Source of the DNA: Octopus vulgaris | Taxonomy: Eukaryota | Direction of reading: 5' to 3' | DNA: 64,000 bases | Assembly: GCA_951406725.2 (NCBI GenBank) | Contig: OX597819.1 | Span: forward strand, 57,784,001 to 57,848,000 | In this document: positions 13,210 to 64,000 of the stretch, one piece after another | Numbering within the stretch: position 1 is the first letter of the stretch | How the letters are laid out: the number at the start of each line of letters is the position of its first letter | Made by a program: the position numbers and the translations under genes | Notes under the pieces: model-generated | Seen by the model: the letters and a program-made list of their open reading frames with translations, nothing else | Databases searched by the model: none | Told to the model about the DNA's origin: nothing

Positions 13210-13848
13210 ATGACGACGAAGCTGGCAGAACCGTCAGCACGCCGGTCAAAATGTTTAGCAGCATTTCGTTCGTCTTTACGTTTCTGATTTCAAATGCTGC
13301 CGAGGTCGACTTTGCTTTTCATTCTTTCAAGGTCGATAAATTTAATACTAGTAAAGCACTGGATTCGATGTAATGGACTGGTCTCACTCCTGCAAAGCTT
13401 CGAATATTGTGCCTATAGTAGAAAGGATTATTAGAAAAGATTTGAAGGCGGCGAGCTGGCAGAAACGTTAGCACGCCGGGCGAAGTGCTTAGCGATATTT
13501 CGTCTGCCGTTACGTTCTGTGTTCCAATTCCGCCGAGGTTCACTTTACCTTTCATCCTTTCGGGGTCAATAAATTAAGTACCAGTTACGCACTGGAGTCG
13601 ATATAATCGACTTAATCCGTTTGTCTGTCCTTATTTGTTCCTTCTGTGTTTAGCCTCTTGTGGATAGTAAAGAAATAGGTATTTCGTCTACGGTTACGTT
13701 CTGAGTTCAAATTCCGCCGAGGTCGACATTTCCTTTCATCCGTTCGGGATCGATAAATTAAGTACCAGTTACGCACTGGAGTCGATGTAATCGACTTAAT
13801 CCCTTTGTCTGTCTTTATCTGTCTCCTCTATGTTTAGAAAGGATTATG
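13210..13848 (+). mobile_element. two tandem SINE family A copies (13210-13432, 13444-13848)
   Basis: gctggcagaa heads and repeated gactttgcctttcatcctttcgggg cores. Confidence 0.85.
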
Positions 13849-42220: not shown

Positions 42221-42941
42221 TATCGTACTTTGCACAACTAGCATTTAGTATTTCATTTATTTATATAGAATATTAATTTTATATAATATAATTTATTTAG
42301 AATAATATACATACATACACATACACACACGGCTATCTATATATATATACATGCGTACAAAGTATGGGGATTTAGTTCACAAGTGATCTAAACGATTAGG
42401 TACGCTAGGCAAGTGCTGTAACAGATTACTGAGGCTTAAAGGTTATAGTCGAGACTGTAGTTATGGAGCTATTGCAGATTTTTCCGATGCAGCGGATATA
42501 CAATTGTTAAACAGGGCAGCTAACATTAAGGCAAGGCAAACATCTCATGTCGCATACGATACTATTATAGGAAGAAATCCAAAATATCCCCGAAACAGCT
42601 GTAAGATTTTGAATTTCTTCCTATAATAATATTACATGCGACTTCATATGTTTGCCTTGCCTTAATGTTTGCTGTCCTGTTTAACAATTCTATATACATA
42701 TATATATATATATATATTTGTGTGTGTAATCATACATACTATTATTACTCTGTTATCATTTAATATTTCTTTAAAAACAATAATATATGTTTATATTGTA
42801 CATAGCGTAATTCAAAATACCAGAAACATGTATAATGTGATAAGTCTGGAGTTATTTATTTGTAATCCTTAGTAGTAGAGATTGGCATGATGTAAAAACA
42901 TCATAGCTTTTTCTTGAATAAACAGAAAAATGATTAGGAAT

Positions 42942-44154: not shown

Positions 44155-44196
<42 letters not shown>

Positions 44197-44298
44197 TCGG
44201 GGTGAATACTTGATAATTATAAGCACCTGTGTATACCGTTTGGTGGTGTAGGTGGTGGAGTAAATTGATCAAAATAAAAACATGATGCGAAGGATTCA

Positions 44299-44376
44299 GC
44301 GGTACATATGTTTCGGGCCTTTATTAGACAGATTTATAACAATGCATAATGTATGTCTGTGGCCTTCTTCAGCCGC
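44299..44376 (-). ncRNA. type I hammerhead ribozyme motif (left arm)
   Basis: gcgg-CTGAAGA-aggcc..ggccc-GAAA-catatg-TA-ccgc. Stem I gcgg/ccgc and palindromic stem III acatatgt. Confidence 0.75.
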
Positions 44377-44519
44377 GCACAACAGCTTCCACAAGGACAT
44401 GTGTTACATCAAAAATTCTTCTATGCTGCTGCCGCATTATGTCGTACGCGAATGAGAGGATTTGCATCCCCAACCAAGAATTTTTGATGTAACACATGTC
44501 CTTGTGGAAGCTGTTGTGC

Positions 44520-44597
44520 GCGGCTGAAGAAGGCCACAGACATACATTATGCATTGTTATAAATCTGTCTAATAAAGGCCCGAAACATAAGTACCGC
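44520..44597 (+). ncRNA. type I hammerhead ribozyme motif (right arm)
   Basis: gcgg-CTGAAGA-aggcc..ggccc-GAAA-cataag-TA-ccgc. Confidence 0.7.
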
Positions 44598-44628
44598 TGA
44601 ATCCTTCGCATCATGTTTTTATTTTGAT

Positions 44629-44662
<34 letters not shown>

Positions 44663-46459: not shown

Positions 46460-46852
46460 AAGGCGGCAAGCTGGCAGAAACGTTAGCACACCGGGCGAAA
46501 TGCTTAGCAGTATTTCGTCTGCGCTACGTTGAGAGTTCAAATTCCGCCGAGGTCGACTTTACCTTTCATCCTTTCGGGGTCGATTAAATAAGTACCAGTT
46601 ACGCACTGGGGTCAATGTAATCGACTTAATCCGTTTGTTTGTCCTCTCTGTGTTTAACCCCTTGTGAGTAGTAAAGAAATAGGTATTTCGTCTGTCTTTA
46701 CATTCTGAGTTCAAATTCCGCCGAGGTCAACTTTGCATTTCATCCTTTCGAGGTCAATAGATTTAAGTACCAGTTGCGTACTGGGGGTCTATCTAATCGA
46801 CTGGTACCCTCTCCAAAAATTTCGGGCCTTGTTCCTAGAGTAGAAAAGAATA
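46460..46852 (+). mobile_element. SINE family A, dimeric form
   Basis: Full head, two cores and tagaaaagaat tail. Confidence 0.88.
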
Positions 46853-58483: not shown

Positions 58484-58826
58484 GAAATATTAAATTTCTA
58501 AATATCCCAGAGAGATATAAGTTTACAAAGTCTAGACAGGTATCTTTAGCTAGCAGACCATACTACTCCAGACTGATGACGAGGAAGACTCAGAAACATG
58601 TCTCTGGATGCAGGCCTAGCTGTTGGGGGTGCTTGTCTCCCCTTTATAAACATAAGGACACAGGAAATGTGTCAAAGCCGACAGGAAGCGTTGATGCTTC
58701 CTAGGGCTAAATAGCAGTGGTGCGATTCCCTTTATGGGACTGTCACGTTAAGTTGACAGTATACAACTGCTCTATCGTTCCACCACTACTTATATCTCTC
58801 TGATATATTTAGAAATTTGATATTTA
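58484..58826. mobile_element. small element with ~37 bp inverted ends enclosing the hammerhead (Penelope-like remnant)
   Basis: aatattaaatttctaaatatcccagagagatataagt vs acttatatctctctgatatatttagaaatttgatatt. Confidence 0.65.
58567..58608 (+). ncRNA. minimal type I hammerhead ribozyme
   Basis: tccaga-CTGATGA-cgaggaagactca-GAAA-catg-TC-tctgga. 6 bp stem I, canonical core, palindromic acatgt stem III and GUC cleavage triplet. Confidence 0.85.
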
Positions 58827-61192: not shown

Positions 61193-63227
<2,035 letters not shown>

Positions 63228-63229
63228 GA

Positions 63230-63392
<163 letters not shown>

Positions 63393-64000
63393 AGGAAGGC
63401 AAGGAGGCAGACAGACAGATATACAATGGAAAGAGGAACATGTATCCGTTTAGGAATGTAGTTTGAAAACGCGGCCATGTTCTATACCATTTCAATTTTT
63501 CAGTTAATTGCATAGATTTAAGAATGTTAAAGTCTCCCAATTAGGAATGAATGTTTCTAGGCAGTCGTGTCGTCACCTTCTTGATGAAGTGATGTCGCCG
63601 ACTATTGCTGTTTGTCATTATGTAGGTAGGAGGTCCGATGCGACCGGTGTAGATATTACTGCTATAAGTTGAATAATGTACCTTGAGTTTTATTAAATAG
63701 ACTATTATTTAGGTCTTTGATTTGTTTGCCACAAGCTTATGTCATATAGTTGTTTATACAAGCATTAAGAGTACTACTTGAATTACTAATAATCTCTTTA
63801 CGGCTAGCAAGCTAATAGAATCTTTAGTTTCACAGATAATGCATAGCAAAACCTTCACTATACCATTGTCCTTTAATTATATCATCACTACATGTTGTCC
63901 ACTCAATAGTAAGTACTTTTAATTGCACAAAGATGGCCATTTAATAAACCATTCTAGAAACCGGACGGATCCAGCAGGTGTCAACACATTCTAGAAGAGA

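What the first reader, a model, noticed from the sequence alone, without database searches (positions are those of the whole stretch)
44191..44632. Near-perfect palindromic element with an intact hammerhead ribozyme in each arm
Seen: 157 bp arms differing by one base, a 55 bp spacer, a ~73 bp one-sided extension (44191-44263) and (TA)n on both sides. Each arm has stem I gcgg/ccgc, CUGAAGA, a long stem II insert, GAAA, stem III ACAUAUGU (palindromic in the left arm) and a GUA site. Established: Penelope-like elements (PLEs) carry minimal type I hammerheads with palindromic stem III and often show inverted terminal repeats with a short tail. Inference: this is a young non-coding PLE derivative. 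A transcript from either strand would contain one ribozyme plus its antisense, so self-cleavage competes with forming a 157 bp dsRNA (a possible ADAR/Dicer substrate).
Basis: partly seen in the sequence, partly recalled or inferred. Interest (0 to 1): 0.75.

Follow-up and report, generated by a model that had tools for sequence, protein, structure and literature searches.

The report
Back-to-back stumps of Penelope retroelement
This 441-base mirror-image sequence is two cut-short ends of a common Penelope-type jumping gene joined back to back, a known layout; its copies across the genome suggest that both halves are likely copied from the element's RNA at the moment of insertion, and its self-cutting RNA motifs are predicted to be masked here.

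Summary
Real, and mostly ordinary. The 157-bp arms (one mismatch), 55-bp spacer, 72-bp tail and (TA)n flanks are confirmed. All three parts are the colinear 3' end of a young Penelope-like retroelement with Hydra-clade motifs (1,132 exact hammerhead-motif hits; 842-aa open frames; telomerase-like RT and GIY-YIG folds). The locus is two 5'-truncated ends joined head to head at a junction found once in the genome, so it is a one-off insertion product, not a self-propagating non-coding element. Across copies, 33 of 33 position-sampled pairs (27 of 27 in a second family) have exactly one tailed arm; one tail-less/tail-less exception came up in a separate set. Either arm can reach further 5' (15 vs 15), which argues against fold-back and for two primings on opposite target strands. 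The hammerhead covaries across families and has a long stem II that Rfam misses. The right copy has lost its dimer palindrome, and read-through RNA from either strand makes the antisense arm first. Copies show no excess of 5' ends at the cut site. The scan noted this architecture before in other genomes (191 notes, at least 29 genomes).

The parts
44164..44191 (.). (TA)14 target microsatellite, left flank; a target-site duplication cannot be told inside it
   Evidence: nearly all family ends lie in (TA)n
44192..44263 (-). 72-nt 'tail': AC-rich RNA stretch downstream of the hammerhead, which in tandem copies runs on into the 5' UTR (ATG 80 nt past the tail end); one private base at 44206
44264..44420 (-). 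Left arm: with the tail, a 229-nt 5'-truncated 3' end of the element (tailed copy)
44299..44376 (-). Type I hammerhead, family wild type (helix III palindrome ACAUAUGU); predicted cut between 44303 and 44302
44419..44420 (.). Head-to-head junction with 2-nt microhomology (TT) beside a 6-nt complementary patch; found once in the genome
44421..44475 (+). 'Spacer': 55 nt of ordinary 3' UTR, present only in the tail-less copy
   Evidence: loose ends at 44419 continue into the normal upstream UTR
44476..44632 (+). Right arm: with the spacer, a 212-nt 5'-truncated 3' end that stops at the tail-less end point
44520..44597 (+). Type I hammerhead with intact core but a private T>A at 44590 that abolishes the predicted helix-III self-duplex; predicted cut between 44593 and 44594
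44633..44661 (.). (AT)n target microsatellite, right flank

Best explanation
The locus is one recent insertion made of two 5'-truncated 3' ends of an autonomous Penelope-like retroelement with Hydra-clade motifs, joined head to head in a (TA)n run, and it was likely built at this site by two reverse-transcription events primed from opposite target strands. Shown: the parts are colinear in linear copies behind an RT plus C-terminal GIY-YIG frame; one copy ends at the tail end, the other 72 nt earlier; junctions differ between loci. Inferred mechanism: the element's protein (probably a dimer) nicks both strands of (TA)n; one 3'-OH starts copying the uncleaved RNA at the far end of the tail, the other at its near end; both cDNAs stop early and independently; their 3' ends are then joined, often through short microhomology. 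The stump encodes nothing and has left no detected copy of its own. Its hammerheads are passengers: predicted to be buried in a 157-bp hairpin in read-through RNA of either strand, and the right one can no longer form the dimer helix.
For: Colinear spacer-arm-tail in 14 of 15 fetched loci; 842-aa stop-free frames in L128-L131; the model's top three fold matches are telomerase RT (E 2.6e-7 to 4.3e-7) and the C-terminal domain's top three are I-TevI GIY-YIG (prob 0.85-0.95, E 0.04-0.18). One-tail rule: 33 of 33 head-to-head pairs among 92 ends on contig C1 sampled by position (17 and 16 in the two orders; 1.2e-10 if ends were independent) and 27 of 27 in a second family. The tail-less arm reaches further 5' in 15 of 30 resolved pairs, the tailed arm in 15. 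Arms of a pair share a subfamily marker in 30 of 31 scorable pairs (shuffle mean 14.3, maximum 25 in 100,000). Microhomology of 2 nt or more in 9 of 19 cleanly resolved direct joints against 16% expected. No excess of 5' ends at the cut site: 1690, 1629, 1570 genome-wide hits as the probe is extended 5 nt across the site and 5 nt more, a 3.6% loss each time. In vitro, a Poseidon PLE protein cleaves and extends both strands and starts RT at two sites that bound the tail, using uncleaved RNA (PMC11167929).
Against: One head-to-head locus (L045, present twice, 92-95% identity) has two tail-less arms, so the rule is not absolute. One 10-kb pair has discordant markers, probably two separate insertions. 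26 of 92 ends had no partner in the fetched stretch, so many insertions may be single-armed. Marker concordance is also explained by two RNAs from one source locus or by gene conversion between arms. L002 has a junction at the same 6-nt patch, 3 nt shorter, which I read as an independent join but cannot prove. All mechanism steps are inferred from genomic footprints; folding results are equilibrium predictions. Pfam and PDB sequence searches of the frame gave no significant hit and the full-length model has mean pLDDT 50.8.
Confidence: 0.82

Rival explanations
1. A non-autonomous, non-coding palindromic element (MITE- or retrozyme-like) that is copied as a 441-nt unit, with hammerheads processing its RNA.
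For: Many loci align over the full 441 nt; outer ends are fixed; L002 has a nearly identical junction.
Against: Inner junctions differ among 31 distinct best-hit loci and 30 position-sampled loci; total size runs from 238 nt to over 5 kb; the window's junction occurs once; no tandem same-strand hammerheads, which retrozymes need (10.64898/2026.07.22.740005).
Confidence: 0.04
2. Fold-back (self-priming): one cDNA or an antisense RNA snaps back and copies itself, giving the mirror half, as proposed for head-to-head Penelope units in PMC3846280.
For: Arms of a pair are nearly identical and share rare variants; short microhomologies sit at junctions.
Against: A fold-back copy must lie inside the first arm. 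Here each copy has sequence the other lacks (spacer, tail); the tail-less arm is the 5'-longer one in 15 of 30 pairs, by over 3 kb in three; in the second family four tailed arms begin downstream of, or within a few bases of, where the other arm stops.
Confidence: 0.06
3. Two primings, but on two separate RNA molecules held together, possibly through the palindromic helix III of their hammerheads.
For: Helix III is a self-complementary 6-8-mer in four families of this genome with different letters (self-duplex -7.0 to -10.3 kcal/mol); dimer action is proposed for PLE hammerheads (PMC4209133).
Against: Two independent RNAs do not by themselves explain why one start is always at each end of the tail; Naiads lack canonical hammerheads yet show the same inverted, tailed layout (PMC8557442). 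This is a variant of the best explanation, not an alternative to the locus's identity.
Confidence: 0.25
4. The locus works as a regulatory RNA switch (self-cleavage versus a 157-bp dsRNA for ADAR or Dicer).
For: A read-through transcript would fold into a hairpin of about -308 kcal/mol, a plausible ADAR or Dicer substrate from general knowledge.
Against: No gene was recognised around it among 45 frames of 130 aa or more (exons of short length would be missed); the insertion is very young; stem I is predicted to be sequestered both by the antisense arm and, in the linear element, by upstream sequence (probability 0.77 alone, 0.004 with 20 nt of 5' flank).
Confidence: 0.05
5. Assembly artefact (chimeric fold-back).
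For: No listed contig from 4 runs bridges the junction.
Against: Arms differ at one base, the asymmetry follows the family's two end points exactly, and dozens of loci show the same layout with other junctions.
Confidence: 0.02

Closest known systems
Hydra clade of endonuclease-positive Penelope-like elements (Craig et al. 2021, PMC8557442; passages, section 11 and part 2 of 59 of the supplement read)
   Same: Single frame with RT and C-terminal GIY-YIG; RW(A/K) and DKT motifs; CxCX5C linker; CxxC and CxH around the conserved E and N; (TA)n targets; canonical hammerhead near the 3' end with an unpaired base on each side of stem II.
   Different: Unit is 4.7 kb (period 4,684 in L101) against generally under 3 kb; the motif reads RWA in this family; the hammerhead carries about 41 nt inside stem II against loops of 3-10 nt in the Hydra rows of File S2; no phylogeny with published Hydra proteins was made.
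PLE insertion architecture with an inverted 5'-truncated copy and a tail at one end (PMC8557442 Fig. 2 legend; PMC3846280 passages)
   Same: Head-to-head inverted copies, tail on one end only, microhomology at 5' joints.
   Different: Tail is 72 nt (about 150 nt in the second family, from one copy) against 30-40 bp; the one-tail pattern is nearly strict; the data speak against the self-priming model offered in PMC3846280.
Poseidon PLE of Anolis in vitro (Frangieh et al. 2024, PMC11167929; parts 1-2 of 4 read)
   Same: Two RT start sites bounding an AC-rich tail; AT-rich target; uncleaved RNA is the template.
   Different: There the tail lies inside the frame; here it is 5' UTR. The passages read do not link the two start sites to inverted insertions.
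Minimal type I hammerheads of metazoan PLEs (Cervera and de la Pena 2014, PMC4209133; parts 1-2 of 4 read)
   Same: 4-bp helix I, extra base after A9, palindromic helix III; dual motifs on opposite strands 100-700 bp apart were already reported there.
   Different: Much longer helix II insert; not matched by Rfam.
LINE-1 twin priming (recalled; no call)
   Same: Two primers from opposite target strands give an inverted 5' part joined by microhomology.
   Different: Here both starts are at fixed RNA sites 72 nt apart and the two cDNAs usually overlap in what they copy.

Membership tests
Penelope-like element (endonuclease-positive) | Telomerase-related RT in a single frame | tested here: met
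   842-aa frames in L128-L131 with FIQFD, MGS and YRDD motifs; top three fold matches are TERT. Pfam and PDB sequence searches blank.
Penelope-like element (endonuclease-positive) | GIY-YIG endonuclease | tested here: met
   C-terminal 160 aa, pLDDT 70.7; top three matches I-TevI, then T4 EndoII and UvrC; E 0.04-0.18, so modest.
Penelope-like element (endonuclease-positive) | Partial tandems forming pLTRs, inverted 5'-truncated copy, optional tail | tested here: met
   L101 holds inverted copy, partial tandem and full unit; pairs.
Hydra clade PLE | Endonuclease at the C-terminus, no N-terminal CxC or endonuclease | tested here: met
   Alignment A1.
Hydra clade PLE | RWK and DKT motifs | tested here: met
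   DKT present; RWA in this family, RWK/RWR in relatives L138, L133.
Hydra clade PLE | CxCX5C linker; CxxC and CxH around the conserved E and N | tested here: met
   CNCRCASEC, CQLC, CIH.
Hydra clade PLE | (TA)n insertion preference and canonical hammerhead | tested here: met
   the hammerhead has an unusually long stem II.
Hydra clade PLE | Short unit (generally under 3 kb) | tested here: not met
   4,684 nt because of a roughly 2-kb 3' UTR; the paper gives this as a tendency.
Hydra clade PLE | Groups with published Hydra RTs in a phylogeny | not tested
Type I hammerhead ribozyme | Core CUGANGA, GAAA, UH with three helices | tested here: met
   across four families helix I, helix II and the helix-III palindrome change letters but keep pairing.
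Type I hammerhead ribozyme | Self-cleavage at the predicted site | not testable with these tools
   No footprint of cleaved templates in genomic copies; needs an in vitro assay.
Non-LTR retrozyme | Tandem same-strand units each with a hammerhead | tested here: not met
   Two motifs on opposite strands, unique junction.
MITE-like non-autonomous element | Many copies of one fixed internal sequence | tested here: not met
   Junctions and sizes differ between loci.

The most novel reading that the evidence does not exclude
Penelope-like elements insert by two-site twin priming on one RNA molecule: a protein dimer bound across the tail primes the two target strands, one at each end of the tail, so every two-armed insertion carries exactly one tail and two arms of the same template. 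The 60 of 60 position-sampled pairs in two distant families are its genomic record, and the conserved hammerhead, with a long stem II that Rfam misses, does not cut the templates that get inserted.
Probability: 0.5. Interest if true: 0.55.

Novelty: new member of a known kind. Interest (0 to 1): 0.3.

Why it matters
The locus itself is a harmless-looking stump. Its value is as one of many footprints that constrain the poorly understood PLE insertion cycle: the near-strict one-tail rule, the free choice of which arm is longer and the shared variants between arms favour two coupled primings and speak against the published self-priming idea, and they give a sharp prediction for the existing in vitro system. 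The counts also say that inserted copies come from uncleaved RNA. Two side points: this genome's Hydra-type hammerheads have long stem II inserts that Rfam does not detect, and such elements scatter near-perfect hairpins through the genome that would be ADAR or Dicer substrates where transcribed (untested).

Tried and rejected
Rfam on both strands at E<=10: no hammerhead family among 49 matches. Pfam on four frame pieces of L043 and on four whole frames, and a PDB sequence search: nothing significant. The protein atlas gave no answer. Sequencing runs: no RNA holder listed; contigs of 4 runs were laid and none listed spans the stretch or bridges the junction by 31 letters a side; neither is evidence on expression or editing. 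A 7-of-8-bp pairing between loop II and the sequence after stem I was considered and dropped, because older or variant copies (L128, L135) break it without compensation. The stem II probabilities printed for the flank series used a wrong index and are not used; one search repeats them correctly. The 'insert' class is overcounted where copies differ from the references near the joint, so only the 19 cleanly resolved direct joints are used (11 of 30 set aside). A cluster of 5' ends about 306-331 nt upstream of the tail end may mark an RNA start or a hairpin stall; not resolved. Paper searches for a twin-priming model of inverted PLE insertions found none stating it, but the library lacks most subscription papers, including early Penelope work that may hold such a model.

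Full report
Observation. The inverted repeat is as described. Exact arms are 44264-44420 and 44476-44632 (157 bp, one mismatch at 44306/44590), with 55 nt between them. A 72-nt one-sided extension fills 44192-44263, and (TA)n runs flank both ends. A strict type I hammerhead pattern hits each arm, + 44520-44597 and - 44376-44299, two of four hits in the window. Rfam names no hammerhead among 49 matches at E<=10.

What it belongs to. The window lies in G000, a 2.8-Gb assembly, probably of a cephalopod (inferred from the microsatellite-dense DNA and from AI notes on the same genome; not tested). A DNA search scored 40 of 1,906 candidates and gave 92 matches. A 22-mer of the hammerhead has 1,132 exact hits and its reversed control none. 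In 14 of 15 fetched loci, spacer, arm and tail lie in a row on one strand, at the end of a long 3' UTR behind an RT-endonuclease frame. L101 shows the full layout: inverted truncated copy, partial tandem, then a 4,684-nt unit whose ATG lies 80 nt past the tail end. Four loci carry stop-free 842-aa frames (L128-L131). Pfam and PDB sequence searches were blank. The predicted full-length model (mean pLDDT 50.8, RT core about 60-90) matches telomerase RT best, and the C-terminal domain matches I-TevI and other GIY-YIG nucleases, at modest E-values. The motifs RWA/RWK, DKT, CxCX5C, CxxC and CxH and the (TA)n target are those that PMC8557442 gives for the Hydra clade; its supplement lists one octopus Hydra family, whose hammerhead has another sequence. 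The unit is longer than the usual 3 kb, and I made no phylogeny, so the clade rests on motifs.

What the locus is. The minus strand holds arm plus tail (229 nt); the plus strand holds spacer plus arm (212 nt) and stops where the tail would begin. Each differs from the linear copy L036 by one base, at 44206 and 44590. They meet 5' end to 5' end over a 2-nt microhomology. The junction 27-mer occurs once in the genome at up to one mismatch, and other loci have other junctions and sizes. So the palindrome is made anew at each insertion. It is not a family with a fixed interior. The layout is the one drawn for PLEs in PMC8557442 and PMC3846280, and opposite-strand hammerhead pairs 100-700 bp apart were noted in PMC4209133.

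How it is built. To avoid bias towards tailed copies I took the first 100 hits in order of position and examined 86 of them (14 later single hits were not fetched). Among 92 element ends, 44 lie at the tail end and 48 before it. All 33 head-to-head pairs within 12.5 kb have one of each (17 and 16 in the two orders); 26 ends had no partner in the fetched stretch. Independent ends would give this with probability 1.2e-10. A second family, 33% identical in the endonuclease region and with 1,863 motif hits, gave 27 of 27 pairs among 69 ends (the long ends run past my probe, and one is interrupted). In the tail-biased best-hit set, 30 of 31 distinct loci obey the rule; L045, an older locus present twice, has two tail-less arms. 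The tail-less arm reaches further 5' in 15 of 30 resolved pairs and the tailed arm in 15 (one of 31 pairs had no resolvable junction and two 10-11-kb pairs were not given to that call). A fold-back copy would lie inside its template, so self-priming as proposed in PMC3846280 does not fit; the window's own copies each hold sequence that the other lacks. Arms of a pair share a subfamily marker in 30 of 31 scorable pairs (shuffle mean 14.3, maximum 25), with 0.9% divergence within pairs and 2.3% between; the exception is a 10-kb pair. Microhomology of 2 nt or more marks 9 of 19 cleanly resolved direct joints, against 16% by chance. In vitro, a Poseidon PLE protein nicks and extends both target strands, starts at two RNA sites that bound the tail, and is predicted to be a dimer (PMC11167929). 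Taken together, I infer two coupled primings from opposite strands, one at each end of the tail, then independent truncation and end joining. Whether one RNA or two serve as template is open; two RNAs from one source locus, or gene conversion, would also give concordant arms.

The hammerhead. It is a conserved part of the element. In four related families of this genome, helix I (GCGG/CCGC, CUUC/GAAU, UUUC/GAAA, GCAG/CUGC), helix II and the helix-III palindrome (ACAUAUGU, ACACGUGU, ACAUAUGU, ACCGGU) change letters but keep pairing, and all carry long inserts in stem II (the fourth motif is assigned to its family by position only). Published Hydra loops are 3-10 nt. Alone, the 78-nt motif folds as a hammerhead. 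With 20 nt of its own 5' flank, stem I falls from 0.77 to 0.004, in line with the low or protein-assisted activity reported for PLE hammerheads. At this locus the right copy has lost the helix-III self-duplex (-7.0 to +0.9 kcal/mol), the two copies are on opposite strands and cannot form the tandem dimer in one RNA, and a read-through transcript of either strand makes the antisense arm first (stem I probability about 1e-79). Genome-wide, probes extended across the cut site lose 3.6% of hits, the same as the next 5 nt (1690, 1629, 1570), and none of the 5' ends seen in 22 long loci falls on the site. Inserted copies therefore come from uncleaved RNA. Transcription, editing and dicing could not be tested.

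Earlier notes and print. I reached this reading before opening the scan's notes. A word search then showed 191 notes in at least 29 genomes on similar PLE palindromes, several with the same twin-priming idea; these are unchecked AI notes, not support. One reports joints at the cut site in another genome, which this family does not show. Searches found no paper stating two-site twin priming for PLEs, within a library that lacks most subscription papers. Papers seen: PMC4209133 parts 1-2 of 4; PMC11167929 parts 1-2 of 4 and passages; PMC8557442 passages, section 11, a search of the supplement and its part 2 of 59 (supplementary alignments not seen; they bear on the clade call); PMC3846280 passages; 10.64898/2026.07.22.740005 part 1 of 5; all others as search listings only.

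Verdict. Observation confirmed; interpretation partly supported. A new member of a known kind: a miniature inverted insertion of a young Hydra-type PLE. Interest 0.3, carried by what the copies say about the insertion mechanism rather than by this locus.

Noticed in passing
window 58568-58608 (+); relative L195 1355-1758: A second, compact type I hammerhead-like motif (6-bp stem I, CUGAUGA, 3-bp stem II, palindromic helix III, C at the cut site). Its 22-mer has 2 exact hits in the genome; the other locus has a 52-nt direct repeat with period 352, retrozyme-like.
   Followed up: partly
window 42496-42585 and 42606-42695: Another inverted repeat, 90-nt arms, 88% complementary, 20-nt spacer, beside (TA)n; possibly an old MITE or PLE stump.
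   Followed up: no
G000 loci L132-L134, L137-L140, L143-L147, L180, L191: Several more Hydra-type PLE families (35-52% protein identity), some with stop-free frames of 900-1,090 aa and asparagine-rich inserts, and with long-stem-II hammerheads.
   Followed up: partly
family copies on G000:C1: 5' truncation points cluster about 306-331 nt upstream of the tail end, often in both arms of one pair, at a small predicted hairpin; a possible RNA start or RT stall.
   Followed up: no
L061 1309-2109 (G000:C1 near 19.712 Mb): A tail-to-tail arrangement of two tailed ends with 44- and 34-nt tail-end fragments between them in one (TA)n run.
   Followed up: no
L045; L096-L098: L045 is the one tail-less/tail-less pair, duplicated with its flanks; L096-L098 hold three copies of one stump at an 8.1-kb period, a segmental tandem duplication.
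   Followed up: partly
window 61745-63481 (-): A 578-aa stop-free frame that looks like the RT C-terminal part and zinc-binding domain of a LINE-type element (recognised from recalled motifs).
   Followed up: no
window 46525-46802 and 13496-13837: Two- copy repeats of about 175-184 nt period with a shared sequence, SINE-like.
   Followed up: no
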